Shown piece after piece: positions 3,129 to 38,777 of a DNA stretch of 40,661 nt. The translations under genes and the position numbers were made by a program. Under the pieces are notes generated by a model. That model did no database searches. It had not been told where the DNA came from and saw only the letters and a list, made by a program, of their open reading frames with translations. Source of the stretch: Bacteroidales bacterium UBA2716 (GTDB lineage Bacteria > Bacteroidota > Bacteroidia > Bacteroidales > UBA932); the NCBI GenBank assembly GCA_002354005.1, contig DEKS01000148.1:1-40661 (forward strand). Reading direction: 5' to 3'. Numbering within the stretch: the stretch's first letter is position 1; each line of letters starts with the position of its first letter.

Positions 3129-3154
3129 ATCTATAAACTTTTATATTCTATCAT

Positions 3155-3184: not shown

Positions 3185-3186
3185 GA

Positions 3187-9503: not shown

Positions 9504-9528
9504 ACGCGTGTAAGGTGTTGTGCAGAAT

Positions 9529-15775: not shown

Positions 15776-15789
15776 AAGTGTTTGATTTT

Positions 15790-15826
15790 AAAAGCAAAAG
15801 CCAGAGGAAAGCCCCCTGGCTTTTGC
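15790..15826 (-). terminator. Intra-operon stem-loop (partial terminator or mRNA stabiliser)
   Basis: Stem gcaaaagccag (15794-15804) / ctggcttttgc (15816-15826); on the minus strand it extends by G:U pairs and is followed by TTTT. Confidence 0.75.
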
Positions 15827-15841
15827 GTAAAAAATAACGAA

Positions 15842-17437
15842 TTATTGAGCTGTATTGAAGGTAAGGCTGTAATTCAGCGTTGCAGTTACAGTCTTGTCTG
15901 CGGCAGTAAAGCTGACTACAATTTTGTAATTGTTGATGGTCTTGCCGTTTACGCCGGCCATATCAGAATCATAGAAGCCACAGGTGGTAGTAAAATCATC
16001 ATAGAATTCTACATAGTAGCTGCGTGCATTTGCTGCGCCCTCTTCCTCACTTACTTTATCTCCGAAGTTAATGGATTTACCATTGACATCGAACCAGTTT
16101 CCGAATAAGCCACCTGCGGTAGGAGTAACTTCTTCTTCTCCGACGTAAGCTTTCGCTGTAAGTTGACCGGAAAGGGCGGCGCTGCCAACTTGGTCCGCGG
16201 TAATCTGGAAGGCGTCCAGAATTGCTTCACTTGCGTCGTAGCTGGCTCCTTCTGTGGTTACAGTCATGGTAACAGGAATGACAACATCTTTCATTTTGGC
16301 AGCGTCAATAGGCTCAACTTCGCTTACGCCTTCAAATTGGGAATCGAAAGCGAATGTTGCAACGGCCTTGCCTCCTGTGTAGGTGAAGGTGAGCTCGAGT
16401 TTGAGGTTGTCAACCTTCTTTCCTGCAACAGCTGCGTAGTCGTTATAACCAACGCGGAGAATAAGGTCCGTGCCCAACTCAAAGTAGTAGGCATAGCCTT
16501 CGGAGCCCCAGGTGCAAACCTGCAGATCGCCGTTGAACCATGCTCCGGCGATACCGGCTGCGGTGTTGTCAACTTCTTCATTATTGATATAATTTTTGCC
16601 TACGATGGCGCCAGTGCCACAAGCAATGCCAAAGTCTTCGGCGGAAAGCTTGAATGCATCAAGAACCTGTTCGGAGAAGTCAATCTCAGCACCGGCTGCA
16701 GTGAAGGTTTCCTTCACCGGGATTTCGATGTCCTTGGTCGCACCGCTGGGCTCAATGGCTCCGGCATCAACAATCTTGATGTTCCATTCTACATAGTAGT
16801 AACGTTCTACATCGTCATCATCGGTAATGAAGAATACTTCCGTAGCTTTGTATACATCGCCTACTTTACCGTCAAAACCTCCGTCAAGGAAGCCGATATT
16901 GTAGGTCCACATGGCATCAAGTGTCTCTGCATCCGGAGAATCAGCACCCCAGTCAACAACACTTTCGGTGTAGAAAAGTTTGTCGCCCGCTTCATCGCTC
17001 CAGTACGTCATACGGCCGGTTTTGCTCCACCAGTGACCATAATTGGCAGAAGTTTTGGGAATCCATTTCATGTTGTCATGGTTATTCTCGTCGGCAACAC
17101 CAAACATCATGGTGTTGTCCTTCTGGGCAGAAATACCGGTGGCGCCGGCATCGTCATCGCAATACCCCATGGCTTTGTAGAACTCTTCTGCGGTCATGTC
17201 GAAGAAATCAAGGATGTCGTCGCCAGGCATCTCCGCTGCGTGGGCAGCCCATTTACTGGTTTCCACGCCGTTGATCATTTCTACAGTTACTACAGTGGTC
17301 TTCTCAACGAAGCCTTCCTCAACGGGATCGGGATTCTCATTGCCGTTGCCGCCGTTGTCCACGGGGATGACGGGCTTTTTCTCACAGGCAGCGAGGGTGA
17401 GGGCTGCGGCTGCAATAAACAAGAATACTTTTTTCAT
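15842..17437 (-). CDS. SusE-positioned surface binding lipoprotein with three DUF4859-like repeats
   Basis: Lipobox TLAAC; very acidic; three repeats (ILDFFDMTAEEF..GHWW, VLDAFKLSAEDF..GAWF, ILDAFQITADQV..GNWF); immediately after SusD. Confidence 0.7.
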   Translation of the reverse strand: MKKVFLFIAAAALTLAACEKKPVIPVDNGGNGNENPDPVEEGFVEKTTVVTVEMINGVETSKWAAHAAEMPGDDILDFFDMTAEEFYKAMGYCDDDAGATGISAQKDNTMMFGVADENNHDNMKWIPKTSANYGHWWSKTGRMTYWSDEAGDKLFYTESVVDWGADSPDAETLDAMWTYNIGFLDGGFDGKVGDVYKATEVFFITDDDDVERYYYVEWNIKIVDAGAIEPSGATKDIEIPVKETFTAAGAEIDFSEQVLDAFKLSAEDFGIACGTGAIVGKNYINNEEVDNTAAGIAGAWFNGDLQVCTWGSEGYAYYFELGTDLILRVGYNDYAAVAGKKVDNLKLELTFTYTGGKAVATFAFDSQFEGVSEVEPIDAAKMKDVVIPVTMTVTTEGASYDASEAILDAFQITADQVGSAALSGQLTAKAYVGEEEVTPTAGGLFGNWFDVNGKSINFGDKVSEEEGAANARSYYVEFYDDFTTTCGFYDSDMAGVNGKTINNYKIVVSFTAADKTVTATLNYSLTFNTAQ

Positions 17438-17484
17438 TGTGTAAATAAATTAATTGGTGTTTGTATTTCGTGTTCTATAAGCGA

Positions 17485-19425
17485 CTAGTCGCCAGGCTGA
17501 TCGGTAGTGGATGCGTCGGAGAAGCCGTAGTTCTGGACCAGCTTGATGTTGGACTGGATGAATTCCGTGTAAATGGGGAATACATTGTTGTGCCAGTCGC
17601 CCACGTCCATCTTTTTCTTGCGGCAGAACCAGGTTTTTCCGTTGTACACGTTGCGGCCGTCGGAGCACATGAAGCGCTGCAGGTCCTGGCGGCGGTGGTG
17701 TTCACCCACGAACTCCCAGGCCAGGTCATCCAGGAGACCGCCCAACTCGATGCTGGCGCTGTTGTCCTTGGTGTATTCCGTGAAGGAGGATGCGAGCACA
17801 TTGCCATTGGCGTCGTACTTGAAGTCGGCGTACGGGTTGGCGGAGGTGGAGGTGGTGCATTCACGCACGCCGTAGTCATACACGGAGTCTCCGCGGAGCT
17901 GTGCGGCGGTACGGGTGGCCTTGGCCGGATTGTCCTTGAAGGCGCGCTGGCGCACCATGGTTACCCAATTGGCGGCATCGGCATCGCTCTTGCCGTCAAT
18001 GCCACCGGCGCGGAGCACGGTCTCGGCCATGATGAAGTAGGCGTCCGACAGGCGGTAGAAGCACACGTCGTCACCATAGGTGCCGCGGTTACCGGGCACA
18101 ATTTCCTGTCTCTTGAAGCGGGCGCCTTCAAAGTCGTAAGCTCCGGGATTGTTGATGGAGTGGACTTCTACGGTGTAGATGAGCGGGTAGTTGCCGGCGG
18201 CGTGGTTGTGCGTCTTGTGCTTGGGCTCGGCGGAAATCATGGCGGCGGTAAGCATGTCGGGACCGTCGTCGGAACGTTTCTGCTCTTCCTCGTAGATGGG
18301 GAAGCCCGGGTCGTCATAATAATACTGCTGGCCAATGGCCCAGGTGTCCGTGAGACGGGTGTCGTCCGGGTCATAGCTGTGGATGAACTGCGGCACGGCG
18401 CAGGAACCGTTCCAAGGGGTTCCGCTGTAGCCGAAGGCGGCGCCGCCGCGGCCCACGAAGCACTTGTTTACCAGGTAGTTGTGGCTGGCCTTGGCACCGT
18501 CCAGCGGAAGGACAAAGATGACTTCCTTGGCGCCGTTCAGGTTGTTGCGGCTGTTGTCCAGATAGTTGTCGGCCAAGCTGTAACCGCCTTCGTCAACAAC
18601 CATCTTGGCATATTCGTAAGCCTTCTTGTACCACTTGTTGCCGTTCTGGGCGTTGGTCTGGAAGAACTCGCTGTCCCAGTTGCGGTTGTTGCGGGCGTGT
18701 TCCGACATCACCAGATTGGTGGCGGCATCTTTCTCGAAGCCGCGCAGCCAGCTGTCGTGCATGAGGAAGGTCTTGGCGGCCAGCATGCAGGCGGCGTACT
18801 TGTTCATACGGCCGTACAGCTTGGTAGTGGGCATGTCGGGAATGCACTCTTCCACTTCTTTGGCCAGGAAGTCCCATACGTGTTCCGGAGCCACCTGCTC
18901 GGGCAGGTAACCGGGGGTAAGGGTGGCTTCATAGCTGATTTCCAGCGGAATGTTGCGCCACAGGTCAAAGAGCACGAAGTAGTACAGGGCGCGCAGGGCG
19001 CGAACCTCTGCATAGGCTTCCTTGTTGTCCTTGATGGCCTGGGTCTCAAGCAGCTGGTTGGCTTTCATGATACCGTTGTAGCAGTAGTTCCACTCCTGCC
19101 AGAGGTGCGGAATACCGGCATAAGGGTCGTTCTGGTGCAGGTTGATGTATTGGGCGCCCCAGCCGCCGTAGGTGCGGTAGGGAGTCATGATGAGGTCCGA
19201 GCTTTCTTCGTTGATGTCGAAGTAGCCTTCCCAAGCCCAGTACATGAAACGGAGCTGTACATACAGGTTGCCCAGCATGTCCGCGGTTTCGTCTTCCGTT
19301 CCGGAAAGGTTAGCCGGGGAAAGGGAAGAGTAAACGTGCTCTGTAAGGTCCGTACAGGAGGGAGCAGCTCCGAGGATGGCGGCAGCAGCAAAAGTGCTGG
19401 CAATGATTTTGGTAATGGTTTTCAT
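17485..19425 (-). CDS. SusD/RagB-family nutrient-binding lipoprotein
   Basis: Lipobox AAPSC, AEVRALRALYYFVLFDLWRNIP, GRMNKYAA, YRLSDAYFIMAE, LAWEFVGEHHRRQDLQRF. Confidence 0.93.
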   Translation of the reverse strand: MKTITKIIASTFAAAAILGAAPSCTDLTEHVYSSLSPANLSGTEDETADMLGNLYVQLRFMYWAWEGYFDINEESSDLIMTPYRTYGGWGAQYINLHQNDPYAGIPHLWQEWNYCYNGIMKANQLLETQAIKDNKEAYAEVRALRALYYFVLFDLWRNIPLEISYEATLTPGYLPEQVAPEHVWDFLAKEVEECIPDMPTTKLYGRMNKYAACMLAAKTFLMHDSWLRGFEKDAATNLVMSEHARNNRNWDSEFFQTNAQNGNKWYKKAYEYAKMVVDEGGYSLADNYLDNSRNNLNGAKEVIFVLPLDGAKASHNYLVNKCFVGRGGAAFGYSGTPWNGSCAVPQFIHSYDPDDTRLTDTWAIGQQYYYDDPGFPIYEEEQKRSDDGPDMLTAAMISAEPKHKTHNHAAGNYPLIYTVEVHSINNPGAYDFEGARFKRQEIVPGNRGTYGDDVCFYRLSDAYFIMAETVLRAGGIDGKSDADAANWVTMVRQRAFKDNPAKATRTAAQLRGDSVYDYGVRECTTSTSANPYADFKYDANGNVLASSFTEYTKDNSASIELGGLLDDLAWEFVGEHHRRQDLQRFMCSDGRNVYNGKTWFCRKKKMDVGDWHNNVFPIYTEFIQSNIKLVQNYGFSDASTTDQPGD

Positions 19426-19444
19426 AGATGCTTTCCTCCTTGAA

Positions 19445-22400
19445 TTACTTGTTGCCGAAGGTGAGATTTACGCCCAGGGTGAAGGTACGGATGGTAGGAT
19501 ACTTGTTGCGGTAGTCCACACCGAAGCCGAAACGGTCGCCGGAGGACATTTCCGGGTCGATGCCCTTGTATCCGGTGATGCAGAATACGTTCTCGCCGGA
19601 GAAGAAGATGCGGGCACGGTCCAGGTATTTCACGTTGTCTGTCTTGAAGGTGTAGCCGAAGTTGAGGTTGTCCAGCTTCAGGTAGTCACCGTTCTCCAGG
19701 TAGTAGCTCACGGCCACCGGCTGCTGGGAAGAGGAGAGAACGCCGCCATAAACGGGCTCTACGGCGCTCTGATAACGGTTGAGGCCGATATTCAGGTTCT
19801 CGTAGAACATGCGCTGGCAGTTGAAGATCTTGAAGCCCAGGGCAGAGGAGAAGGCCAGGGTGAGGTCGAAGCCCCTGTAGCGGAAGGTGTTGCTCCAGCC
19901 AAAGTTCACGGCCGGAACACCGGAGCCCAGATACTGGCGGTAGCGGGAGTCATAACTGCGCATGCCATCCACGAACATGGTGGATTCGCCGGTCTCAGGG
20001 TCTTCAATCATCCACATGCCTTTTGCTGAACGGCTGGTGCTCAGTCCGGTGGACTTAAGCATGTAGAAGTCGCCCAGGGCACCGCCTACATAGGTACGCT
20101 GCAGGACCATGGAAGTGGGTTCTTCCGTCCAGGCGCCGTCCAGGTAGTCCTCGGTCTGATACAGGTCATTGGAGAGGGACTCCAGGCGGTTCTTGTTGTG
20201 GGAAACGGTGAGGGTGGTGTTCCACTCGAAGTTGCGGGTACGTACGGGCGTACCGCCCACCATGAGTTCCACACCGGTGTTGGACATGGTGCCCACATTG
20301 GCGGTGGTACTGTTGTACAGGTTCGGGGGTACCGGCACGGAGTAATCCCACAGGAGGTCTACGGTGCGCTTGTGATACACATCCAGGGAACCGTACAGGC
20401 GGCCGTCGAAGAAACCGAAGTCCACACCCACGTTCACCTCATGGGAGGTCTCCCACTTGAGGTTCTTGTTCTCGTTCTGGATAGGCGTGAGGGAAGGACG
20501 CCATACCCCGTCCGGGGTGATGTAGTTGCCGTAGGAGGTGTCATAGTCGTACAGCAACAGCGACATGTAGGAAGCGCTGGGAATAACGCCCGTTTTACCG
20601 TAACCGGCACGGATTTTCAAGTTGTCCAGCCAGCGGACGTCCTTGAGCCAGTCTTCGTTGGAGAGGGTCCAGCCGGCGCTGACGGCAGGGAACAGACCCC
20701 ACTTGTTGTTGGCGGCGAACTTGGAGCAGCCTTCATAGCGCAGGGTAGCCAGCACATTGAAGCGGTTGTCGAAGTTATAGGTGAAACGGCCGAAGAAACC
20801 AATAAGCGTGGCTTCTTCCTTGTGAGAGGAAACGCCGCCGTAGGTTTTCAGGGTATAGGTCTTGTTTTCGCCTTCACCGGATTCCACCAACTCTGCCAGA
20901 CGGCCGGCTTCCAGGGCGTTGTACAGGTAGGCGTCCGTAGGGAATTCGGAGTTGGAAGCGCCAAAGCTGCTGCTGGTGCTGCGCATCCAGCTGTAGCCAA
21001 GCATGCCGCTGATATGGTGCTTGCCCAGTTGGCGGTCGTATTGGGTGGTGAGCTCCAGCAGGTTTTGGGTGAAGTCTCCCTGGCTCTTGCCGGCGCTGCC
21101 GTTGATGCCGCCCCAGCGGTTGCCCTGGTATTTGGCGGTGTTGTAGTATTCGTTCACGGAGTTGTTGCGGCGGGTGCTCAGCTGCAGGTTGGTTTTCCAG
21201 CCGGCGATGGGCTCTACAGTGATGTTACCGGTGAGGCGGGTGGTCTCAATGCGGTAGTCTCCCGTGTGCTCCTTATTATAAGGGATAGGGTTGTAGTAAT
21301 ACAGCGGAGCGGTTTGCTCGTAGTAGTCCTGCGTGGGGTCGTTGTCCACATAGATGGGCGCCGTAGGGTTGCGGATGACCGCCTGGTGGTATATGGTCCA
21401 GCTGTCCTGGTTGTCGCTCTTTGAGAGCGTCTTGAGCATGTTGACGTTAATCTTCAGGATGTCGTTGAACAGGTACTGGGTGAGGTCCACCTGGGCGCGG
21501 AGGTCCTGGCTGTAAGAGCCTTTGATCACACCCTGGTTGTCTTTATAGGTAACGTTGGCGGAATAGGCCATGTGCTTGGTGCCGCCTTCAAGGTTGATGT
21601 TGTGGTTGTGGGCAAAGCCGGGGTGGGAAACCTCGGAGAGCCAGTCCGTATTGTAACCCAGGTCTGCGAACGGGGAATACTTGGCCAGGTAGGTTTGGCC
21701 GCTGCTGTCCGTTCCCAGGTCTTCCAGCATGTGCATGAAGTCCGCATCCATGAATTTCACGCGCTTGGAGAAAGTGGAGACGGAAGCATAGCCGTTGTAG
21801 GAGATGTTGAAGCGCTCTCCCACTTTACCGGCCTTGGTGGTGATGAGAATGACACCGGCGGCACCGCGGGTACCGTAAATGGCGGCTGCGGAAGCATCCT
21901 TCAGGACGGTGATTTCCTCGATGGCCTCGGGAGCCACGGTGGAGAGGGAACCTTCAATGCCGTCCACGAGGACCAGCGGAGTGTAACCGCCCATCAGGGA
22001 GTTCACGCCACGGAGCATGATGGTGGAAGTGGAGTTGGGGTCGCCGTTGCCCTTGGTAACGTTGAGACCGGCCACTTTGCCTTTCACCAGCTGGGCTGCG
22101 TCCCCGATGTTACCGGCAAGGAAGTCCTCGCTTTTTACATTGGCGACGGCTGAGGTGATGTCACCTTTCTTCTGGGTACCGTAACCGATGACCACGGCGT
22201 CTTCCAGGGAGAGGAAGTCCTCCTGGAGGGTCTGGTTGATGACGGTGCGGCCCTGAACGGGTTCATCGGCCTGCAGATAGCCGATGGCGGAGAAGGTAAT
22301 GGTGGCATTGGCACTGATGCCGGTAAGGTGGTACTTACCTTGCTCGTTGGTGATGTCACCGCTGCGGGTACCGGCTACAAGCACGCCTACGCCAATGATG

Positions 22401-22522
22401 GGTTCACCTTTGGCATCGGTCACCGTACCGGTAACGTCGATGGTCCGCTGGGCGAAGGCCTGCGTGCCCACGAGGAGCATCAGACCGGCAGCCAAAGCAG
22501 AACAAATGGATTTGAAGTGCAT
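19445..22522 (-). CDS. SusC/RagA-family TonB-dependent transporter
   Basis: Signal peptide, N-terminal extension domain (VTGTVTDAKGEPIIG), VVIGYGTQKK, plug VLKDASAAAIYGTRGAAGVILITTK, LKWETS, ENGDYLKLDNL, terminal beta strand TFTLGVNLTF. Confidence 0.96.
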   Translation of the reverse strand: MHFKSICSALAAGLMLLVGTQAFAQRTIDVTGTVTDAKGEPIIGVGVLVAGTRSGDITNEQGKYHLTGISANATITFSAIGYLQADEPVQGRTVINQTLQEDFLSLEDAVVIGYGTQKKGDITSAVANVKSEDFLAGNIGDAAQLVKGKVAGLNVTKGNGDPNSTSTIMLRGVNSLMGGYTPLVLVDGIEGSLSTVAPEAIEEITVLKDASAAAIYGTRGAAGVILITTKAGKVGERFNISYNGYASVSTFSKRVKFMDADFMHMLEDLGTDSSGQTYLAKYSPFADLGYNTDWLSEVSHPGFAHNHNINLEGGTKHMAYSANVTYKDNQGVIKGSYSQDLRAQVDLTQYLFNDILKINVNMLKTLSKSDNQDSWTIYHQAVIRNPTAPIYVDNDPTQDYYEQTAPLYYYNPIPYNKEHTGDYRIETTRLTGNITVEPIAGWKTNLQLSTRRNNSVNEYYNTAKYQGNRWGGINGSAGKSQGDFTQNLLELTTQYDRQLGKHHISGMLGYSWMRSTSSSFGASNSEFPTDAYLYNALEAGRLAELVESGEGENKTYTLKTYGGVSSHKEEATLIGFFGRFTYNFDNRFNVLATLRYEGCSKFAANNKWGLFPAVSAGWTLSNEDWLKDVRWLDNLKIRAGYGKTGVIPSASYMSLLLYDYDTSYGNYITPDGVWRPSLTPIQNENKNLKWETSHEVNVGVDFGFFDGRLYGSLDVYHKRTVDLLWDYSVPVPPNLYNSTTANVGTMSNTGVELMVGGTPVRTRNFEWNTTLTVSHNKNRLESLSNDLYQTEDYLDGAWTEEPTSMVLQRTYVGGALGDFYMLKSTGLSTSRSAKGMWMIEDPETGESTMFVDGMRSYDSRYRQYLGSGVPAVNFGWSNTFRYRGFDLTLAFSSALGFKIFNCQRMFYENLNIGLNRYQSAVEPVYGGVLSSSQQPVAVSYYLENGDYLKLDNLNFGYTFKTDNVKYLDRARIFFSGENVFCITGYKGIDPEMSSGDRFGFGVDYRNKYPTIRTFTLGVNLTFGNK

Positions 22523-22569: not shown

Positions 22570-22636
22570 CAAATGTAAATGAAACACATGTTGCCTAATG
22601 AAAGGATAGTCCAAGGTTTTTGGAAAATCGTCCAAA
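22570..22636 (-). promoter_or_regulatory. Activator-dependent susC promoter: TTGGAC direct repeat plus -7 box
   Basis: Minus strand TTTGGACGATTTTCCAAAAACCTTGGAC with half-sites 21 bp apart (22635, 22614); TACATTTG at 22577-22570; no canonical -33. Confidence 0.8.
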
Positions 22637-22637
22637 C

Positions 22638-25517
22638 CTATTCCTCGTTGAATGCAGCCTGTTTTTTGGCCCAGTCGTGGGGCGTCATGCCAAATTGCGC
22701 GGCAAAAACCTTGGAGAAATAGCTGGGAGACGAAAAACCGGTCATGTAACAAATTTCGCCTACCGAATGTTTGCCTTGCGCAAGCAGGTTGGCCGCCGTG
22801 TTCAGCCGAGCCTGCGAGATTAAGTTGTTGGGTGTTTCGCCTGTATACTCCTTCACCTTGGCAAAGAGGCCGGAGCGGGAGATGGCCATTTCTTTGGACA
22901 GGAACGCCACCGACAAGTCCGGGTTTGCCAAGTTCTCGGAAATCAGCCGGTCCAGGCGGGCCATGAATCCCTCCGGACTGACGGCATCGGGGGCGGCGGG
23001 CTCCCCGGCGGCGGGTCCTTCCGCTTTAATCTGCCGCAGGTTGCCCACAATCTGCCGCAGCATCCGCTGGTTCTTGTCAATGGCTGTCAGTTCCGGTGAA
23101 GGCAGGCCGCCTTTCAGTTTCTTTACCTGCAGGCCGATTCCCGTCACGGGCGCCTCCAACTGGTCGGCCAGGTCGGAGAGCATTTGTTTGCGGTCGTCCT
23201 GCTCCTCCCCCTTAATCAGGATTTCCGTCTTGCGCTCTACGTGCTGGGTGATGGCGAGCAAGGCCAGCCATACCATGAGGCCTCCCAGAAGGATGTATAG
23301 GACGATGGCCACGTTGGACAGCAGGGGATGCGGCTTGATTTGGAATTCCAGCACGGCGCCGTCGTTCCACGGGCCGCCGTTGTTGCGCGCTTTGATGTGC
23401 AGCCGGTAATGGCGGGGAGGCAACTGGCTCAGGCTCACCCAGTTCTGGTTGCCCAGCTCCATCCATTGACCGTCGCCACCGTCCAACTTATACATATATT
23501 GCACTTTCTCAGGGACGCTGAAGGTGGGTGCGGCAAAGCCGATGGTCAGGTTGCGCATCCGGAAGGGAAGCCGGATGCCTTTGTCTCCCTGCGAGCGGAA
23601 AACGTCTTCGTTTATGCCTGGTGCCGATGCGTAAAAACGCGTGAAAAGAACATTGGGGACGGGCGGGTTGGCGGGTACGGCTCCGGGATAGAAGGTGACA
23701 AATCCGTTAGCGGCGCCCATATACACGTGTCCGTCCCGGGTGACGAGTCCTGCTCCGGGCATGTACTGCTCTGTGAAAACGCCGTCGTTTTGCTGATAGC
23801 GTTCCAGTCCCAGATTTTCACGCGGGCCATAGCGCAGCAGTGTTTTGGACGATGAAAGCCAGAGCTGGGCGGTGCTGTAAGCGGCAAAGCAGACATCCGT
23901 TTTGGGTAGCAGCACCTGCGGGTCCTCCGGATTCAGTACGGCAAAGCCCCGGCGCGTACTTACGCACAGCGTTCCGTTGGAGAGCATGAGGTGATTGACG
24001 TGGTCGTTGGGGATGATGGAGTTGTAGCTGTTCAGTTCTTCCCAGGAGCCGTCCGTATGCCGGACAAGGATGCCTTTGCCGGTGGTCCCGAACCATAGCG
24101 TCCCGGCGGCGTCTCCCACAATGGCACTCACCCCTTCGCCGATGTTCTTCTCCGGGACAAAGCGGTCTTCTGCGGCATTGTAGCGCCATATATCGGAGGT
24201 GTTGCCCGCCCACAGCGTGCCGTCTCCTGCCAGATAAAAGGCATAGATGCTCAGCGGCTCGTATTCTATTATGGCTTTGGTTTTCAGGTTTACGCGAAGG
24301 GTGCGGGAAGGATAGTTGCCAATCCACAGCCAGTCTCCCTGGCGTAGGAGGGCATGGATGTTCAGGGCGGAAAAACGGGCTTCCCAGGCTTTTGACGGGG
24401 CCCAAGGCGCGGCTTGTCCGCTGGCGGGGTTATAGCGGAAAAGGCCGCCGTTGTCGGAGCCCATCCAGATGCTGCCGTCCGGGTCCTCGCAGAAGCAGCT
24501 CACGGCGTAGTCTTCCTGGGCGTCCGTGAGGTCCGACAAGGAGTGGGACTGGAACAGGCCGTTTCCGGGAGCCACATAGTTGACGCCGCCATAGTAAGTG
24601 CCTATCCACAAGCCGTTTTCGTGGTCCTTTAACAGGGGGTACACAAATTTGTTGGACAGCGTGCGCGGGGTGTTGCGGTCGTTGGTGTACAGGGTGCTTT
24701 CCCCGGTAAACGGGTCCACCTGGAACAGGCCGTCGTCGGAGCCGGCCAGCAGGTTCCGGGAATTCTCCTGTAAAAGCGAATGGATGCGCGTGAGGCCGTT
24801 TTGGGCGGAGACCGCGCAGCAGATGGTGCGGGTGGACGGGTCCAGGCGGTAGATGCCCTTGTCCCAGGTGCCCAGCCAGAGATTTCCCGCACCGTCTTCT
24901 TCCAATGCGCATATGCGCGCGGGCGTACAATTATTATACGTGAAAGAGGGGGGGGTGAAATCTTCCGTAGAGGCGTTGTACAGGTACAGTCCTTCCGGTG
25001 CGGACTGCGCGGCGGCCCACAGCCGGCCGTCTGCGGTAAAGCGGAGGGCTTCGATGCCTTGTCCCGCCAGATAATGGCTCCAGGCTCCTTTCCGGAGACG
25101 GTAAATGCCCTGGTCGAAGGTGCCTAACCACAAAGCGCCTTCACTGTCTTCGGCCATACAGGTGTATGCGGTGTGCGGAGCGCTCTCCACCTTTTGCATG
25201 GACATTCCGTCATAGCGATACAGTCCGTCGTCGGTGCCGGCCCAGAGTGTTTGGGCGGCGTCTTCCCACAGGCAGTTGACATAATTGGCGCCGGCGCCGG
25301 AAAACTCATGGTGGATGACCTCCCGGCCGTCAAAACTGTCCAGACCGTCGGCCGTGCCAATCCAGATCAGTCCCCGGTGATCCTGTATCATGCTGCGAAC
25401 GGTGTTGGACGATAATCCGTCGCTGATGTTCAGGTGCCGGAAACTGTAAGAGGGGCCTGCTACAGCGGTATAGAGGGCTGTAAGTGTCAGGAATAGTGTG
25501 GTTAGTGTCCTTTTCAT
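22638..25517 (-). CDS. HTCS-derived membrane-bound AraC regulator (beta-propeller sensor, Y_Y_Y, TM, degenerate DHp, AraC HTH; no HATPase or REC)
   Basis: Propeller repeats (GLSSNTVRSMIQDHRGLIWIGTADGL), Y_Y_Y (QYMYKLDG..YRLHIKARN), TM, about 90-aa linker, AraC HTH (GFSSPSYFSKVF). Only 959 aa. Confidence 0.88.
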   Translation of the reverse strand: MKRTLTTLFLTLTALYTAVAGPSYSFRHLNISDGLSSNTVRSMIQDHRGLIWIGTADGLDSFDGREVIHHEFSGAGANYVNCLWEDAAQTLWAGTDDGLYRYDGMSMQKVESAPHTAYTCMAEDSEGALWLGTFDQGIYRLRKGAWSHYLAGQGIEALRFTADGRLWAAAQSAPEGLYLYNASTEDFTPPSFTYNNCTPARICALEEDGAGNLWLGTWDKGIYRLDPSTRTICCAVSAQNGLTRIHSLLQENSRNLLAGSDDGLFQVDPFTGESTLYTNDRNTPRTLSNKFVYPLLKDHENGLWIGTYYGGVNYVAPGNGLFQSHSLSDLTDAQEDYAVSCFCEDPDGSIWMGSDNGGLFRYNPASGQAAPWAPSKAWEARFSALNIHALLRQGDWLWIGNYPSRTLRVNLKTKAIIEYEPLSIYAFYLAGDGTLWAGNTSDIWRYNAAEDRFVPEKNIGEGVSAIVGDAAGTLWFGTTGKGILVRHTDGSWEELNSYNSIIPNDHVNHLMLSNGTLCVSTRRGFAVLNPEDPQVLLPKTDVCFAAYSTAQLWLSSSKTLLRYGPRENLGLERYQQNDGVFTEQYMPGAGLVTRDGHVYMGAANGFVTFYPGAVPANPPVPNVLFTRFYASAPGINEDVFRSQGDKGIRLPFRMRNLTIGFAAPTFSVPEKVQYMYKLDGGDGQWMELGNQNWVSLSQLPPRHYRLHIKARNNGGPWNDGAVLEFQIKPHPLLSNVAIVLYILLGGLMVWLALLAITQHVERKTEILIKGEEQDDRKQMLSDLADQLEAPVTGIGLQVKKLKGGLPSPELTAIDKNQRMLRQIVGNLRQIKAEGPAAGEPAAPDAVSPEGFMARLDRLISENLANPDLSVAFLSKEMAISRSGLFAKVKEYTGETPNNLISQARLNTAANLLAQGKHSVGEICYMTGFSSPSYFSKVFAAQFGMTPHDWAKKQAAFNEE

Positions 25518-25563: not shown

Positions 25564-25630
25564 TTTGGACGATTTTACAAAACAATTGGATTCTGTTACT
25601 TTTTTTTGCCCGGAAGATTCGGTAAATTTG
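25564..25630 (+). promoter_or_regulatory. Activator-dependent promoter of the right-arm operon: TTGGA(C/T) direct repeat plus -7 box
   Basis: TTTGGACGATTTTACAAAACAATTGGAT with half-sites at 25565 and 25586 (21 bp apart); TAAATTTG at 25623-25630; same geometry as the susC promoter. Confidence 0.8.
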
Positions 25631-25653: not shown

Positions 25654-28071
25654 ATGTCCAACCATTTTATCGCCGTTTTGGCCGGCCTGACAGCCGTTGT
25701 TTCTGTCCAGGCCCAACCCGTCCCGGAAGCCGGTTATCCCATCAACCCCGTTCCGTTTACCAGTGTAAAAATTGAGCAGAACTCCTTCTGGGGGCAGCGC
25801 CTCCGGGCCTCCCGTGAGGTCACCATCCCGCTGGCCTTCTCCAAGTGCGAGAGCGAGGGCCGCTATGAGAACTTCGTGAAGGCGGAAAAGCAAATGCACT
25901 CCCCGGTGAACCTGGGGTATGAGGTAAAAGGCTATTCCTTTGACGATACGGATGTGTACAAAACCATCGAAGGTGCCTCCTATGTGCTGCAAACCTATCC
26001 GGACAAAAAGCTGGAACATTACATTGACAGCATTCTGGTCATTGTGGCCGCTGCTCAGGAGCCGGACGGCTACCTGTACACTGCCCGCACTATGAATCCG
26101 GAGCACCCGCACGAGTGGGCCGGCGACCGCCGCTGGGTAAAGGACGAGGAACTGAGCCATGAGCTGTACAACCTGGGCCACATGGTAGACGCCGCCGTCG
26201 CCCATTACCAGGCCACCGGCAAGCGCAATTTCCTGGACATCGCCATCAAATATGCAGACTGCGTGGTGCGGGAGGTGGGCCCCCATGCCGGACAGGCCTG
26301 CGTGGTGCCCGGTCACCAGATTGCGGAAATGGCCCTGGCGCGCCTGTATCTGGCCACCGGGGAAAAGAAATACCTGGAAGAGGCCAAGTTTTTCCTGGAC
26401 GAGCGCGGCAAAACCGAGTATCGTGATGCGTACAACCAGACGCATCTGCCAGTGCTGGAGCAGGACGAGGCCGTAGGGCACGCCGTCCGTGCCGCCTATA
26501 TGTATGCCGGCATGGCGGACGTGGCCGCCCTCACCGGCGACGAGGGCTACATCCATGCCATTGACGCCATTTGGGAAAACATCGTTTCCAAAAAACTGTA
26601 CATTACCGGCGGCATCGGTGCTACCAATGCCGGCGAGGCCTTCGGCGAGAATTACCAGCTGCCCAACATGAGCGCCTATTGCGAGACCTGCGCCGCCATC
26701 GGCAATGTGTATGTGAACCACCGCATGTTCCTGCTGCACGGGGAGTCCAAGTATTATGACGTGCTGGAGCGCACCCTGTACAACGGCCTCATCAGCGGCG
26801 TTTCGCTGGAAGGCAACGGTTTCTTCTACCCCAACCCGCTGGAGAGCATCGGCCAGCATCAGCGCCAGGCCTGGTTCGGCTGCGCCTGCTGCCCGTCCAA
26901 CATTGCGCGTTTCATTCCTTCCGTCCCCGGTTACGTGTATGCCGTGAAGGACAACGCCCTGTACGTGAACCTGTTCATGCCCAATACCATGAAGCAGAAG
27001 GTGCTGGGCAAGGAAGTGGTGCTGTCGCAGCACACCGCCTATCCCTGGAACGGGGACATTGACATCACCGTGGACAAAACGGCTCTCCGCAAGGAGATGG
27101 CCCTCAAAATCCGCATCCCCGGCTGGGTGAAAGGGGAGGTGGTCCCCTCGGACCTGTATAAATATGCCGACGGCAAGCGCCTGGGTTACAGCGTGTGCCT
27201 GAACGGCGAAAAAGTGGAAAGCGAGCTGGTGGACGGCTACTTTGTGATTGCCCGCAAGTGGAAGAAGGGGGACAAGGTGAGCGTGCACTTTGACATGGAG
27301 CCGCGCGTGGTGAAGGCCCATCAGCTGGTGCAAGCGGACCAGGGACGCATTTCCATCGAGCGTGGTCCGCTTGTGTATTGTGCCGAATGGCCGGACAACG
27401 CGGGTTTCAGCGTACGCAGCATCCTCATGAACCAGGCTCCCAAGTTTGGCGTAAAGCATGCCGATGAACTTTTTGGCCTGGATAAAATCACCACCGGTGC
27501 ACAAACCCTGTCCTTCGGTGAAGATGGCCGCCTGGCCACCCAGGATGTGCTTCTCACCCTTATCCCGTACTATGCCTGGTGCCACCGCGGCAGCGGCGAA
27601 ATGGCCGTGTGGCTTCCGCAGTCCTTGCGTGCCACCAAGCCGTCCAAACCGGCTACGCTGGCCTCCGAGAGCGCAATAGACGCCTCCCATAAGGTCCGTT
27701 CCATCGGCGCCATCAACGACCAGCTTATTCCTGGAGATGAGTCATCCCCGTACTACCACTGGTGGCCCAAGAACGGTGGTACCGAGTGGATTACCTATAC
27801 CTTCAAGGCGCCCGCAACCATCTCGTCCAGCACCATTTACTGGTTCGACGACCAGCCCTGGGGCGGCTGCTCCGTGCCCAAGGCCTGGCGCGTCCTGTAC
27901 AAGAACGCGGCAGGGGAGTGGGTGCCCGTGGAAGGCGCCAGCGGCTATCCTACCGTAAAGGGCGCTGCCTGCGAAGTGAATTTTGCGCCGGTTACCACCA
28001 GCGCAGTAAAACTGGAAGTGGACCTGCCGGAGGAGCTGTCGGCCGGCCTGTATGAATGGGAAGTAAAATGA
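25654..28071 (+). CDS. GH127 beta-L-arabinofuranosidase (HypBA1-like), secreted, with C-terminal discoidin/CBM32-like domain
   Basis: Start moved to ATG 25654 (signal peptide MSNHFIAVLAGLTAVVSVQA; ORF-track start lies within the promoter region). FDDTDVYK, HELYNLGH, AVGHAVRA, AYCETCAAIGN, CACCPSN motifs. Confidence 0.92.
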   Translation: MSNHFIAVLAGLTAVVSVQAQPVPEAGYPINPVPFTSVKIEQNSFWGQRLRASREVTIPLAFSKCESEGRYENFVKAEKQMHSPVNLGYEVKGYSFDDTDVYKTIEGASYVLQTYPDKKLEHYIDSILVIVAAAQEPDGYLYTARTMNPEHPHEWAGDRRWVKDEELSHELYNLGHMVDAAVAHYQATGKRNFLDIAIKYADCVVREVGPHAGQACVVPGHQIAEMALARLYLATGEKKYLEEAKFFLDERGKTEYRDAYNQTHLPVLEQDEAVGHAVRAAYMYAGMADVAALTGDEGYIHAIDAIWENIVSKKLYITGGIGATNAGEAFGENYQLPNMSAYCETCAAIGNVYVNHRMFLLHGESKYYDVLERTLYNGLISGVSLEGNGFFYPNPLESIGQHQRQAWFGCACCPSNIARFIPSVPGYVYAVKDNALYVNLFMPNTMKQKVLGKEVVLSQHTAYPWNGDIDITVDKTALRKEMALKIRIPGWVKGEVVPSDLYKYADGKRLGYSVCLNGEKVESELVDGYFVIARKWKKGDKVSVHFDMEPRVVKAHQLVQADQGRISIERGPLVYCAEWPDNAGFSVRSILMNQAPKFGVKHADELFGLDKITTGAQTLSFGEDGRLATQDVLLTLIPYYAWCHRGSGEMAVWLPQSLRATKPSKPATLASESAIDASHKVRSIGAINDQLIPGDESSPYYHWWPKNGGTEWITYTFKAPATISSSTIYWFDDQPWGGCSVPKAWRVLYKNAAGEWVPVEGASGYPTVKGAACEVNFAPVTTSAVKLEVDLPEELSAGLYEWEVK

Positions 28072-30101
28072 GAAAAATTCTTGTAAGCACTGCGCTCGCG
28101 GCCCTTTGCCTGGCGGCGGGCGCCCAAACGCCTAAGAACGTACTCCGGATAGATGTGGATGCCCCCGGCATTCCCATCCAGCCCACCATGTACGGCATTT
28201 TCCTGGAGGATATCAATTTTGCGGCCGACGGCGGCCTGTATGCAGAGAAGATTGCAAACCGTTCCTTCGAGTACGACAACCCTCTTCAGGACTGGAAAAC
28301 CTTCGGGAAGGTGGAGGTCCTTACGGAAGGCGCACCGTTTGCCAACAATCCTCACTACGTACGCTTGAAAGCCCAGGCCCATCCTGCCATGCAGTGCGGC
28401 CTGCAGAACGAAGGCTGGTTTGGAATCGGCCTTGAAAAGGGGGCCGAATATAAACTGAGCTTCTGGGCCCGTACGGTAGGAAAGGCCAAAGAGGTGGGCC
28501 TGGCGGGCATTCTGTGCCAACCTGCCGGTCAGGTGGAAAACCAGAACCTGGCGCTGGCGGAAATCACCGTGAAAGGGAGTAAATGGACCAAGTATGAGGC
28601 TACCCTCACCGCTCCTGAAACCTTGGAGAAGGGTGCTTTCCGCTTGCTGCTGTGGGACGATAATCCCCAGGCGGCAGTGGACGTGGAACACATTTCCCTG
28701 TTCCCGGCAGAGACGTTCCACGGTGACGAAAACGGTCTCCGGAAGGACTTGGCACAGGCCCTGGCGGACCTCCATCCCGGCATCCTCCGCTTCCCCGGCG
28801 GCTGCATTGTGGAGGGAACCAACCTGGACAACCGGTATCAGTGGAAAAATACGGTGGGTCCGGTGGAAAACCGTCCCATCAACATTAACCGCTGGAACTA
28901 CGGCACCTTCGAGCGCATGTTCCCGGATTATTACCAAAGCGGCGGCCTGGGCTTCTATGAGTATTTCCGCCTGGCGGAGGAAATGGGTGCGGAGCCCGTT
29001 CCCATCGTGAGCTGCGGCATGGCCTGCCAGTTTCAGAATGACCCTGAGTGGAAGCCCAACTGCGCCATGGAGGACTTGCAGGGCTACATCCAGGACGCCC
29101 TGGACCTCATTGAATTCGCCAACGGATCCCCCAAGAGCAAATGGGGCAAGGTGCGCGCCCAGATGGGCCATCCGGCTCCTTTCAACCTCAAATACCTGGG
29201 CATTGGCAACGAGCAGTGGGGAGCGGAATTCCTGGAGCGCTTTGTCCCCTTCATGAAGGCTGTGCGCGAGAAATACCCTGACATAAAGATAGTGGGCACC
29301 TCAGGCCCTTATTCCGGCGGCGAATGGTTCGACGACCTCTGGAAAGAGATGCGCAAGCTTAACGTGGACCTGGTAGACGAGCACTATTACAGCTGGGAAG
29401 GCTTCTATGAGAAGAAGGCGGACCGCTATGACGACTATCCCCGCACCGGCCCCAAGGTGTTTGCCGGCGAATATGCCTGCCACGGCTCCGACGGCAAAAA
29501 GTTCAACCACTTCAACGCCGCCCTCCTGGAAGCCAGCTTTATGACGGGCCTGGAGCGCAACGCAGACGTGGTGGTGATGTCCAGCTACGCGCCCACCTTC
29601 GCCCACGTGGAGGGCTGGCAGTGGCGTCCGGACCTTATTTGGTTCGACAACCTCCGTGTCATGAAAACCTGTAGCTACTATGTGCAGCAGCTATACGCCA
29701 CCAATAAAGGCGACCGCGCCATCCCCATCGCGGTGGACGGCAAGCCCGTGGTGAATGCGAATGGCCTCAACGCTACCGCCGCCATGGACGATGCCACCGG
29801 CGACATCATTGTCAAGATGGCCAACGTGAGTCCGTACTCGCAGGTGGTGCGCTTTGTGCTCCCTGCGGGCGTGAAGGCGGCCGAAAGGACCACGCTGCAC
29901 AGCGAGAATCCGGTGGCGGAAAATACGCTGGAGGCCCCTGAGACCATTGTCCCGGAAACCAAGACACTGGATTTCACGCCGGTGGAGGACCCGGACAACG
30001 CCTGGCTCCTGGGCGTGCGCAAGCAGGAAGACGGAAGCATGGAATACAGTGAGCGGCTGGGCGGAAGAACCTTTGCCGTGTACAGATTTCACAGAAACTA
30101 A
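28068..30101 (+). CDS. GH51 alpha-L-arabinofuranosidase
   Basis: Signal peptide; YGIFLEDINFAADGGLYAE, LRFPGGC, GIGNEQWG, VDEHYY, VFAGEYA, MSSYAP; ATGA overlap with GH127. Confidence 0.93.
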   Translation: MRKILVSTALAALCLAAGAQTPKNVLRIDVDAPGIPIQPTMYGIFLEDINFAADGGLYAEKIANRSFEYDNPLQDWKTFGKVEVLTEGAPFANNPHYVRLKAQAHPAMQCGLQNEGWFGIGLEKGAEYKLSFWARTVGKAKEVGLAGILCQPAGQVENQNLALAEITVKGSKWTKYEATLTAPETLEKGAFRLLLWDDNPQAAVDVEHISLFPAETFHGDENGLRKDLAQALADLHPGILRFPGGCIVEGTNLDNRYQWKNTVGPVENRPININRWNYGTFERMFPDYYQSGGLGFYEYFRLAEEMGAEPVPIVSCGMACQFQNDPEWKPNCAMEDLQGYIQDALDLIEFANGSPKSKWGKVRAQMGHPAPFNLKYLGIGNEQWGAEFLERFVPFMKAVREKYPDIKIVGTSGPYSGGEWFDDLWKEMRKLNVDLVDEHYYSWEGFYEKKADRYDDYPRTGPKVFAGEYACHGSDGKKFNHFNAALLEASFMTGLERNADVVVMSSYAPTFAHVEGWQWRPDLIWFDNLRVMKTCSYYVQQLYATNKGDRAIPIAVDGKPVVNANGLNATAAMDDATGDIIVKMANVSPYSQVVRFVLPAGVKAAERTTLHSENPVAENTLEAPETIVPETKTLDFTPVEDPDNAWLLGVRKQEDGSMEYSERLGGRTFAVYRFHRN

Positions 30102-30104
30102 ACG

Positions 30105-31442
30105 ATGGAAATGAAGAAACTTGGATGGGGCCTGCTTGTGGTATTGGCACTGGCCGCCTGTAAAAAGGAAATCGGCCCCGGAGGAGAAAAACCCGGTCCG
30201 GAACAACAACCGGAGGAGGTGGTTATTGCTCCGCAAACCGCTATAGGGGAGATAATGATTGTTACCGATAACGGGGCGGCCGTGGACAGCAAGGATCCGG
30301 CCGACTATCGTCCTTGTACGGTGAAAGTGTTGGGCACCAGGTATGACGCCACCTATAATCTGGAAGCGCGGGGCGCTATCCGCGGACGTGGCAATTCCAC
30401 CTGGAACTGGTACCCCAAGAAGCCTTATCGCATCAAACTGGACGAGTCTGCCTCCGTGCTGGGCCTGCCCCAAAACCGCGACTGGGTGCTGCTGGCGGAC
30501 TACCGGGACGTGACGCACATGATGAACGCCACGGGCTTTTATCTGGCCAAAGAACTGGGCCTGCCCCATGCCAACCACATCCGCTATGTCAAACTCATCC
30601 TGAACGGACAGGACATGGGCCTGTATGCCCTTACGGAGCAGGTGGAGGAAGGCGGCAACCGCGTCAAACTGGATAAGGACGAAGGCATTCTGCTGGCCCT
30701 GGACATCAATGACGGCCCGGACGACGAGCCCCGTGCCACCAACAATTTCTGGAGTGAGGTATTCGAGATGGCCTGCGCCGTGAAATATCCGGACGACGCC
30801 ACCAAAGCCATCTCCAAGCAGGTGAAGGCCGCATTCGCTGAGCTGGAGCAGGCTATTGAGGACGAGGACTGGGAGGAAATCCAGGAGCTGCTGGACGTGG
30901 AGTCCATGATTCACTACATCCTTATCCAGGAAATTATCGGCAATGTGGAAATGGACAATTATCCCAGCATGCGCAGCGGCTTTATCCATCGGTATAATAG
31001 TGATGCCAAATGGGTGATGGGGCCCCTGTGGGACTGCGACGGCGGTTTCTCCTACAACTGGGGCGACATGTACGACTATTACGGCTGGGGACATACCTTC
31101 TTTGAGAATTACCGCTACCTGGTCTTTGGTTCGGATCCTTATAACCATTCCGGCGCATACGGCAGCACAGCATCGCCCTTCTTCTGCCGCCTGTTCGGCA
31201 TTCCCGAGTTTGTGGAAATGCTCCAAGCCCGCTGGAAGGAAACCCACAATGCCCTGCTGGAAGGCCTGCTGACGTATTTGGACGAGGTGGAGGAGCTGAT
31301 TGGCGAAGATGCCCAGGCGGACATGGAGCTCTGGGGCATCGACAATTACACGCACGAGGAAGAGTATAAAAAGTTGGTTACCTGGCTGGCCAACCGCTTC
31401 AATTACCTGGACGACGTTATCCGAAAATATCCCAAGTACTGA
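30105..31442 (+). CDS. CotH-family atypical kinase lipoprotein
   Basis: Lipobox ALAAC; IRGRGNSTW, KKPYRIKL, DWVLLA, GLYALTEQVE, MGPLWDCD motifs. Confidence 0.85.
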   Translation: MEMKKLGWGLLVVLALAACKKEIGPGGEKPGPEQQPEEVVIAPQTAIGEIMIVTDNGAAVDSKDPADYRPCTVKVLGTRYDATYNLEARGAIRGRGNSTWNWYPKKPYRIKLDESASVLGLPQNRDWVLLADYRDVTHMMNATGFYLAKELGLPHANHIRYVKLILNGQDMGLYALTEQVEEGGNRVKLDKDEGILLALDINDGPDDEPRATNNFWSEVFEMACAVKYPDDATKAISKQVKAAFAELEQAIEDEDWEEIQELLDVESMIHYILIQEIIGNVEMDNYPSMRSGFIHRYNSDAKWVMGPLWDCDGGFSYNWGDMYDYYGWGHTFFENYRYLVFGSDPYNHSGAYGSTASPFFCRLFGIPEFVEMLQARWKETHNALLEGLLTYLDEVEELIGEDAQADMELWGIDNYTHEEEYKKLVTWLANRFNYLDDVIRKYPKY

Positions 31443-32971: not shown

Positions 32972-32981
32972 GTCTAACCCT

Positions 32982-34220: not shown

Positions 34221-34226
34221 ACGCAT

Positions 34227-36275: not shown

Positions 36276-36287
36276 TAACACAAAACC

Positions 36288-37913: not shown

Positions 37914-37916
37914 GTT

Positions 37917-38777
37917 ATGAAACGTCTTATCCTTCCCGTGGTGGTGCTTGCAGCCCTTATCCTGGGCTGCAAGGGCCCCCAGAAGGCGGTGGAAGTGGAC
38001 TTTGTCACCGCCTTGGGCATTCCGGAGTGTGTTATCACCACACCTCCGGATTCGCTGCATCTGGACCCTTGGTACAAAAAGTATGTGGACGTGAACGGCA
38101 TTCCGCTGTGCAGCTCCCGGCGTTGCCCGGACAGCGCACTGGTAGCCGGTTACAACACCCTGTGGGCCATGACCTCCATGTTGTCGGATGACGTTATGGA
38201 CGCCCTCAGGAAGGCCGGTACCAGGGTTACCATGATGGGCCGGTACGAGGGCACCACGGATGTGCCGGAGCACGCTTATCTTGCGGCGGATACCACCCTC
38301 AACTGGGACTTGAGGGCCCGCGGCCTGGGCGGCGACCTGGAGTTCCCGCTCACCTCCTGCGCGGAGGAGAACGTGCTGGGCTACCAGATAGACAAGTACC
38401 ACGCGGAGGATATCCTCATTCACGAATTCGCCCACAGCATCCACCTGGTGGGCATTGTCCAGGTGGAGCCGGACATCAACGGGCGCCTGGAGGTGCTGCT
38501 GCAAAATGCCATCGACAAAGGGCTGTGGTGGAATACGTACCGTACCACGGACATTGCGGAGTACTTTGCGGAGGGCGTGCAGGACTGGTTCAACGTGAAT
38601 GCGGAGATGGACCATCCTGACGGCAAACACAACTACGTGAACACCCGCGAGGAACTCAAGGAACGGGACCCGGGCCTATGGCAGCTTCTCAGTGAGTATT
38701 TCCCCGCCACGGACCAGCAAATCTCCAAGCACAAGTACGTAAACCTTTGCACCAAAGCTAATAGTCGAACCCGATAA
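37917..38777 (+). CDS. Small HEXXH zinc-metallopeptidase-like lipoprotein (lethal-factor/PPEP- or M90-like zincin)
   Basis: Lipobox LILGC; WDLRARGLGG, ILIHEFAHSIH, EYFAEG third-ligand motif, ELKERDPGLWQLL. Confidence 0.7.
   Translation: MKRLILPVVVLAALILGCKGPQKAVEVDFVTALGIPECVITTPPDSLHLDPWYKKYVDVNGIPLCSSRRCPDSALVAGYNTLWAMTSMLSDDVMDALRKAGTRVTMMGRYEGTTDVPEHAYLAADTTLNWDLRARGLGGDLEFPLTSCAEENVLGYQIDKYHAEDILIHEFAHSIHLVGIVQVEPDINGRLEVLLQNAIDKGLWWNTYRTTDIAEYFAEGVQDWFNVNAEMDHPDGKHNYVNTREELKERDPGLWQLLSEYFPATDQQISKHKYVNLCTKANSRTR

What the first reader, a model, noticed from the sequence alone, without database searches (positions are those of the whole stretch)
22638..23310. Hybrid two-component regulator reduced to a phosphorylation-independent one-component system
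Seen: after the TM, KQMLSDLADQLEAPVTGI aligns with the HTCS H-box (typically FFTNISHELRTPLTLI) but has Asp at the phospho-His position. ELTAIDKNQRMLRQIVGNL resembles DHp helix 2. A short Ala/Pro linker then joins directly to the AraC HTH. HATPase and receiver domains are absent with the frame intact. Inference: signalling is by direct conformational transmission through a pseudo-DHp bundle. The two well-conserved operators suggest it is functional rather than decayed.
Basis: partly seen in the sequence, partly recalled or inferred. Interest (0 to 1): 0.75.

Follow-up and report, generated by a model that had tools for sequence, protein, structure and literature searches.

The report
Sugar sensor keeping dead kinase stub
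Gut bacteria of ruminants carry a membrane sugar-sensing regulator that has lost its kinase and receiver parts but keeps a conserved, histidine-less stub of the kinase's pairing helices, and it likely switches on neighbouring plant-glycan genes without any phosphorylation.

Summary
Observation confirmed. The 959-aa gene encodes propeller/Y_Y_Y sensor, one membrane helix, a histidine-less DHp hairpin, a short linker and AraC, with no ATP-binding or receiver domain. It is not an artefact or recent decay. All 120 listed homologues share the layout, none of 121 aligned proteins keeps the His (Asp 92, Glu 24), and the stub has dN/dS about 0.15. The family is one clade nested among intact hybrid two-component systems (HTCS). 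A syntenic full-length relative uses the same 21-bp direct-repeat operator, which lies 37 nt before the -7 promoter box in 20 of 22 family loci. The receiver-latch Asp is also lost. Best reading (0.65): a ligand-switched one-component activator of an arabinofuranoside/proline-rich glycoprotein locus; how the stub gates AraC is untested. The principle is already shown for BguR (2026 preprint, GerE output), and this scan noted kinase-less HTCS on other DNA before. New here: the retained, re-conserved pseudo-DHp with AraC output, and a natural reduction series of at least 13 tree-forced changes. New variant of a known kind.

The parts
22638..25517 (-). Regulator gene, 959 aa (P0001): signal peptide, double beta-propeller, Y_Y_Y, TM, pseudo-DHp, linker, AraC
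   Evidence: best fold match BT4663 sensor 4A2M/4A2L, E about 1e-49
23325..25445 (-). Periplasmic HTCS-type sensor (propellers and Y_Y_Y, residues about 25-731)
   Evidence: Pfam Reg_prop and Y_Y_Y; Foldseek; dN/dS 0.29 and 0.22
23193..23315 (-). Transmembrane helix (735-757) and signalling helix (758-775); this lineage has an 11-residue deletion relative to the family majority
   Evidence: continuous helix 735-801 in the model; spacing 70/66/59 only
23025..23192 (-). Pseudo-DHp hairpin (helix 1 776-802, helix 2 808-831); Asp785 (codon 23163-23165) at the phospho-His position
   Evidence: hhalign 94.6-98%; column counts; dN/dS 0.147 and 0.142
22974..23024 (-). Ala/Pro-rich flexible linker replacing the ATP-binding and receiver domains
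   Evidence: pLDDT<50 at 829-844; variable length; dN/dS 0.38
22665..22973 (-). AraC-type DNA-binding domain; receiver-latch Asp position (848) is Pro here
   Evidence: Pfam HTH_18; latch counts; dN/dS 0.10
22609..22635 (-). Operator 1, direct repeat TTGGAC-N15-TTGGAC, upstream of susC
22570..22577 (-). -7 promoter box (TAnnTTTG type) of the susC operon, 37 nt after the start of the second half-site
   Evidence: sequence; the box consensus is recalled Bacteroidota knowledge
25565..25591 (+). Operator 2, upstream of GH127 and between the divergent genes
25623..25630 (+). -7 promoter box of the GH127 operon, same 37-nt offset
6621..22522 (-). Predicted target operon 1: susC, susD, DUF4859, three BACON-DUF6055 proteins, second GH127-type enzyme
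   Evidence: Pfam
25654..40171 (+). Predicted target operon 2: GH127, GH51, CotH, M61, GH27, S9 dipeptidyl peptidase, glutamate-semialdehyde (P5C) dehydrogenase, unknown, M24 Xaa-Pro aminopeptidase
   Evidence: Pfam, NCBIfam TIGR01236 above cut-off; how far the operon is co-transcribed is inferred

Best explanation
This is an HTCS-derived membrane regulator that has lost its ATP-binding and receiver domains and its phospho-histidine, and it likely works as a ligand-switched one-component activator of the two flanking operons. Shown: the architecture, its descent from intact HTCS, selection on every structured part, loss of the receiver-latch Asp, and an operator at a fixed distance from the promoter. 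Inferred steps: (1) an arabinofuranose-containing oligosaccharide or glycopeptide, imported through SusC/D, binds the propeller dimer; (2) the Y_Y_Y/TM movement passes in helical register into the pseudo-DHp four-helix bundle; (3) the bundle, which has replaced the receiver as the 'off' device, probably holds the flexibly tethered AraC domains docked or mis-spaced until ligand binds; (4) the two freed AraC domains bind half-sites 21 bp apart next to the -33 region and recruit RNA polymerase.
For: No relay residues or domains: His in 0 of 121 against 87 of 87 full-length relatives; CA and REC profiles hit 0 of 121 at E<1e-3. Selection over 7 non-overlapping pairs: pseudo-DHp 0.15/0.14, signalling helix 0.21, sensor 0.29, AraC 0.10, linker 0.38. 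The H-box was re-conserved to a new motif rather than randomised (Q786 118/121, E/D788 118/121, Q797 121/121). Y_Y_Y-end-to-H-box spacing takes only three values, 70 (111), 66 (2) and 59 (8), i.e. steps of 4 and 11 residues, about one and three helical turns; the 59 class was reached by two differently placed deletions. In one pair that lost the sensor (L017/L118) the gene's dN/dS is 0.85, against 0.15 and 0.12 for neighbouring susC and GH127 at the same synonymous distance. Operator at offset 37 in 35 of 38 box-linked hits and 20 of 22 loci, against 2 of 16 hits and 2 of 22 loci for unrelated HTCS. No other HTCS of the related clade was found in the 91%-complete genome. Latch Asp in 15 of 121 against 83 of 87 (motif from PMC11253607). 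BguR shows by knockout and RNA-seq that such a sensor can activate a PUL without a relay (10.64898/2026.01.10.698779).
Against: No experiment on this family. The linker to AraC is flexible and variable, so the coupling step has no direct support. Many relatives with no DHp stub at all persist, so a stub is not generally needed. A separate sensor-less TM-helix-AraC lineage (L119/L120) is under strong selection (dN/dS 0.08), which shows that such a cytoplasmic module can be useful without a periplasmic input. The sensor-loss comparison is a single pair with few synonymous sites, and general decay of a useless gene would explain it equally. The ligand is inferred only from gene content.
Confidence: 0.65

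Rival explanations
1. The protein is ligand-regulated, but the stub is only a passive dimer clamp; the switch is dimer assembly or spacing set by the sensor and TM, as proposed for DHp-less forms such as BguR.
For: DHp-less reduced forms arose repeatedly from the same HTCS group, and one (L037) has the same operator. The variable linker argues against a rigid path. PMC11253607 notes that placing two AraC domains side by side can itself activate.
Against: A passive clamp would not obviously need near-invariant polar residues (R776, Q786, Q797, E814-K815-N816) or turn-preserving indels.
Confidence: 0.15
2. The protein is a constitutive or weakly regulated activator: loss of the receiver latch leaves two tethered AraC domains always on.
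For: Latch mutants of BT4124 and BT4663 bind DNA without phosphorylation (PMC11253607; PMC13292587). The latch Asp is lost here. Sensor-less derivatives exist beside intact PULs with operators.
Against: The 700-residue sensor is kept under purifying selection (dN/dS 0.22-0.29) across more than 100 clusters, and its loss is followed by relaxation in the one testable pair.
Confidence: 0.08
3. The pseudo-DHp is a docking site for a partner acting in trans (a stand-alone receiver, another kinase forming a heterodimer, or a protease that releases AraC), so signalling is not one-component.
For: DHp helix 1 is the normal receiver-docking surface (established knowledge), and its surface residues are conserved.
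Against: No receiver or kinase gene in the window, and no CA- or REC-bearing ORF in the family loci scanned, although gene order is heavily shuffled. Distant partners were not excluded.
Confidence: 0.09
4. Assembly artefact or recent strain-specific decay of a normal HTCS.
For: Full-length orthologues exist in the same genus at the same locus position (L121-L123). Some other reduced representatives are single-member clusters (P0251, P0265).
Against: The 120 listed homologue clusters at 45-99% identity share the layout. Independent contigs bridge the junction. dN/dS is about 0.15. The family is one deep clade.
Confidence: 0.01

Closest known systems
BguR of Formosa agariphila (bioRxiv 10.64898/2026.01.10.698779; read abstract, introduction, results and start of methods, parts 1-2 of 4)
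   Same: Double propeller + Y_Y_Y + one TM + DNA-binding domain, no phosphorelay, activator next to susC/D; knockout abolishes induction.
   Different: BguR has a GerE/LuxR HTH, an alpha-helical linker and, per the authors, no HisKA; it is tied to beta-glucans. Here the output is AraC, a DHp remnant is kept, and descent from a specific intact HTCS clade is traceable.
Bacteroides hybrid two-component systems (BT4663, BT3049, BT4124; PMC3243724 passages, PMC11253607 abstract and sections 7 and 11, PMC13292587 abstract and section 7, PMC3878776 passages)
   Same: Same sensor fold, AraC domain, 21-bp direct-repeat operator, PUL context.
   Different: No HATPase_c, no receiver, no phospho-His, no S/CHIP-DK latch.
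BT4236 (PMC11253607, section 11)
   Same: HTCS with the phospho-His replaced (Gln), suggested to be phosphorylation-independent.
   Different: It keeps a receiver domain (CSIP motif) and was listed as an HTCS; the mechanism was only suggested.
SusR (as described in PMC3878776 passages and the BguR preprint)
   Same: Membrane-spanning one-component PUL activator binding a direct repeat.
   Different: Separate family, with half-site spacing of 67-77 bp rather than 21 bp; no DHp remnant reported in what I read.
BT4673 (PDB titles only)
   Same: Entry 3OTT calls it a 'putative one component system' with this sensor type.
   Different: Entry 3VA6 and PMC3878776 list it as an HTCS; I did not see its cytoplasmic sequence or the structure paper.

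Membership tests
Hybrid two-component system (HTCS) | Reg_prop/Y_Y_Y periplasmic sensor and one TM | tested here: met
Hybrid two-component system (HTCS) | HisKA domain with phospho-acceptor His | tested here: not met
   DHp homologue present but His absent in 121 of 121
Hybrid two-component system (HTCS) | HATPase_c domain | tested here: not met
Hybrid two-component system (HTCS) | Receiver domain with S/CHIP-DK latch | tested here: not met
   no REC; latch Asp 15 of 121
Hybrid two-component system (HTCS) | AraC-type DNA-binding domain and 21-bp direct-repeat site | tested here: met
   DNA binding itself not tested
BguR family | HTCS-like sensor without HATPase_c or receiver | tested here: met
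BguR family | GerE/LuxR HTH (PF00196) | tested here: not met
   AraC instead
BguR family | Beta-glucan PUL context | tested here: not met
   GH127/GH51/GH27 and peptidases
Membrane-spanning one-component system (functional class) | Sensor and output in one chain with no phosphotransfer module | tested here: met
Membrane-spanning one-component system (functional class) | Ligand-dependent transcription control without a partner protein | not testable with these tools
   indirect support only
SusR family | Sequence family membership and 67-77 bp half-site spacing | tested here: not met
   spacing is 21 bp; no SusR-type model hit; no direct alignment to SusR made

The most novel reading that the evidence does not exclude
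The kinase dimerisation hairpin has been repurposed as a phosphorylation-free allosteric gate. Its re-conserved acidic surface holds the AraC domains off DNA in place of the lost receiver latch and releases them when the sensor closes. HTCS collapse into one-component regulators repeatedly (intact; DHp plus receiver only; receiver only; pseudo-DHp only; half a DHp; none; sensor-less) while keeping the same operator, giving a natural series in which to test how much of two-component signalling needs phosphate at all.
Probability: 0.35. Interest if true: 0.75.

Novelty: new variant of a known kind. Interest (0 to 1): 0.52.

Why it matters
HTCS are the main PUL regulators of Bacteroidota. How a movement of the propeller dimer is read out inside the cell, and how tethered AraC domains are kept off, are open questions. 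Here close relatives drive the same operator with and without the relay, so chimeras and register scans can separate the mechanical signal from phosphorylation. Domain-based HTCS searches that require kinase and receiver domains would skip these regulators, which databases call just 'helix-turn-helix domain-containing protein'. The operator also marks a likely arabinofuranoside regulon in ruminant gut Bacteroidales.

Tried and rejected
Homodimer prediction of residues 620-959 gave no verdict (0.23 against a mark of 0.42) and is not used. The monomer model has pLDDT about 50 over the stub, so only its secondary structure is used. 'Asp as phospho-His mimic' was considered and not adopted: Gly/Gln occur in the family and Lys, Arg or Glu in other pseudo-DHp lineages. 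'Asp785 as a new phospho-acceptor' was not adopted: it is not invariant, and there is no ATP-binding domain or receiver fold. RNA-library contigs from 4 studies cover susC/susD and GH127/GH51; three of the four show no depth over 22813-25216. Contigs cannot show strand, level or induction, so this is not used as evidence. PDB sequence search of the C-terminal part hit AraC domains only, best 12AW. The family was not found in 400 other genomes sampled across the order at E<=1e-40 (only 4 of them from the own family, so this is a limit of sampling and of one query). Literature: nine full-text searches found BguR and the latch papers but no description of a sensor-pseudo-DHp-AraC protein. The library lacks most subscription papers; two HTCS sensor-structure papers were not held, and the BguR supplements were not seen. 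An Atlas look-up for the regulator gave no answer.

Full report
1. What is there. The finding covers the 3' end of a minus-strand ORF, 22638..25517, 959 aa. Pfam finds Reg_prop repeats, Y_Y_Y (666-728) and AraC (873-951), and no HATPase_c or receiver. The AlphaFold2 model (mean pLDDT 84) matches the BT4663 and BT3049 HTCS sensors best (E about 1e-49 and 4e-47). It shows one helix from 735 to 801, a second from 808 to 832, a low-confidence linker and the AraC domain. The gene sits between susC-susD-DUF4859-DUF6055 x3-GH127 downstream and a divergent run of GH127, GH51, CotH, M61, GH27, S9, P5C dehydrogenase and M24. Related records are titled uncultured Bacteroidales or Bacteroidia, and near-identical DNA occurs in goat and sheep gut runs.

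2. The stub is a real DHp homologue. Pfam HisKA is weak (E 0.004-0.02, below cut-off). The family profile aligns to the DHp of 87 full-length relatives with probability 94.6% (cytoplasmic part only) and 98.0% (with the TM), without a gap through the H-box. A DHp profile hits 116 of 121 family rows at E<1e-3; P0001 itself scores only E 1.5. CA and REC profiles hit 0 of 121. At the His column: D 92, E 24, G 4, Q 1, H 0; after thinning to 49 rows at 80% identity, D 32, E 14, G 2, Q 1. The following residues are also replaced and re-conserved (E to Q 118/121, R to E/D 118/121, T to A 112/121, P 121/121). From recalled kinase biology, H+1 and H+4 serve kinase and phosphatase activity, so both activities are gone.

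3. Not an artefact, not decay. The search with residues 600-959 gave 351 hits among 6899 candidates of 527-1679 aa. None of the 120 listed carries HisKA, HATPase_c or receiver annotations. An independent contig bridges the junction. Nei-Gojobori dN/dS pooled over 7 non-overlapping pairs (pS about 0.43): propellers 0.29, Y_Y_Y 0.22, TM 0.46, signalling helix 0.21, stub helices 0.15 and 0.14, linker 0.38, AraC 0.10. The family is patchy. In the own family 5 of 301 genomes have the reduced form and 5 more hits are full-length. In the own genus 9 of 401 match over nearly the whole C-terminal query, two of them sensor-less. None of 400 genomes sampled across the order matched.

4. Origin. Trees on sensor plus AraC columns, leaving the stub out, place the family as one clade (support 100) nested among intact HTCS (FastTree; IQ-TREE LG+G4 quick on 27 rows). 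Its nearest intact relatives include L121 (1322 aa). L121 lies in the same arrangement next to susC/susD/DUF6055 and GH127, with His, ATP-binding motifs and receiver Asp visible in the sequence, and the same operator. A 94-row tree (2 rows left out for lack of a Y_Y_Y match) needs 17 changes between intact and reduced forms, 13 of them forced by starred branches (FastTree with some long branches, and a change count cannot itself tell loss from gain). Reduced forms seen: other His-less DHp stubs (P0245 as sister; P0251 with Pfam HisKA above cut-off and Lys at the His; P0275, P0320), half a DHp (P0270), DHp plus receiver, receiver only (L124), nothing between TM and AraC (L037, L125 and about 18 representatives), and sensor-less forms. 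Some of these are single-member clusters and may be recent breakage.

5. Operators. TTGGAC-N15-TTGGAY occurs twice in the window. In both, the second half-site starts 37 nt before a TAnnTTTG box. With a loose pattern, 35 of 38 box-linked hits in 22 family loci fall at offset 37, and 20 of 22 loci have at least one (L030 is 1.5 kb; L033 lacks the upstream flank). In 22 unrelated HTCS loci 2 of 16 hits do. The pattern and offset came from the window, and the loci are related, but gene order differs widely among them. Four of 14 close full-length loci and 3 of 5 other reduced loci have the same site. The 21-bp repeat is the general HTCS geometry (PMC3878776 passages; PMC13292587 section 7). A position abutting the -33 region suggests activation (inference from AraC biology). 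A strict scan of the own genome finds operator plus box only at these two places, and a loose scan one more at offset 38 on contig C3. The other propeller/Y_Y_Y regulators of the genome fall far away in the tree or lack AraC.

6. Mechanism. In intact HTCS the receiver latches AraC off through S/CHIP-DK, and breaking the latch gives phosphorylation-independent DNA binding (PMC11253607). Here the receiver is gone and the latch Asp is kept in 15 of 121 against 83 of 87 intact relatives, while the Lys stays. So something else must hold the protein off, or it is always on. For coupling through the stub: the Y_Y_Y-to-H-box distance is 70, 66 or 59 and nothing else, whereas the hairpin loop (26-32) and the linker (30-42) vary freely. 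In the sensor-less pair L017/L118 constraint has relaxed (0.85 overall, AraC 0.43) while neighbours stay at 0.12-0.15 (one pair). Against: the linker is flexible, DHp-less relatives persist, and the sensor-less L119/L120 lineage is well conserved (0.08). I therefore commit to a ligand-switched activator in which the stub probably gates tethered AraC domains by docking or spacing; that step is untested. The ligand is likely an arabinofuranose-bearing fragment. The locus has GH127, GH51 and GH27 with proline-directed peptidases and P5C dehydrogenase, and related loci run into aldose epimerase, a sodium symporter and L-arabinose isomerase. Hydroxyproline-rich glycoproteins are a reasonable but unproven substrate (abstract listings only).

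7. Novelty. Relay-free signalling by this sensor type is shown for BguR, and SusR is the older precedent. BT4236 was flagged as a His-less HTCS. This scan's earlier notes describe kinase-less HTCS on other genomes (unchecked AI notes). I found no paper on a conserved His-less DHp kept between TM and AraC in nine searches of an incomplete library. Verdict: real, functional, new variant of a known kind; interest 0.52.

Noticed in passing
L017:4230-4970 and L118:9951-10691: Family members of about 246 aa with the whole periplasmic sensor deleted, in an otherwise intact PUL with operators; two genomes, cluster of 6; selection relaxed (dN/dS 0.85).
   Followed up: partly
L119:9257-10210 and L120:9304-10170: Separate sensor-less TM-helical-AraC regulators (dN/dS 0.08) with the same operator, upstream of GH97, GH127 and an arabinose catabolism run; their input is unexplained.
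   Followed up: partly
L037:7920-10820, L035: Independent loss of the entire relay including DHp, 65% identical to intact L043, with the same operator at offset 37.
   Followed up: partly
L124:7892-11029: Sensor-TM-receiver-AraC with no DHp or ATP-binding domain; the receiver looks degenerate (phospho-Asp region reads FCELSQP).
   Followed up: no
G000 contig C79:3254-6199: Second relay-free regulator in the same genome: sensor, TM, long coiled coil, AraC, no DHp; unrelated branch.
   Followed up: partly
window 25525-25532 (-): A TAnnTTTG box lies only 7 nt before the regulator's ATG and is seen in L001 and L002, suggesting a nearly leaderless transcript; operator 2 lies just upstream, so autoregulation is possible.
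   Followed up: no
window 9529-15775 (-): Three tandem BACON-DUF6055 proteins plus DUF4859 travel with this regulon, including loci with intact HTCS; function unknown.
   Followed up: no
window 37917-38777 (+): 286-aa ORF with no Pfam or NCBIfam hit, also present (64%) beside the intact HTCS PUL in L018/L019; Atlas neighbours are mostly unnamed Bacteroidota clusters.
   Followed up: partly
window 720-6415 (-): MacAB-TolC-type ABC export cassette (OEP, HlyD, two MacB/FtsX permeases, ATPase) next to the PUL.
   Followed up: no
G000 contig C3, near 21809 (+): Operator-like repeat 38 nt before a TAnnTTTG box; a possible distant regulon member.
   Followed up: no
L020 and L022, just downstream of the HTCS gene: Conserved structured-looking sequence resembling a cobalamin riboswitch (recalled motif, not scanned).
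   Followed up: no
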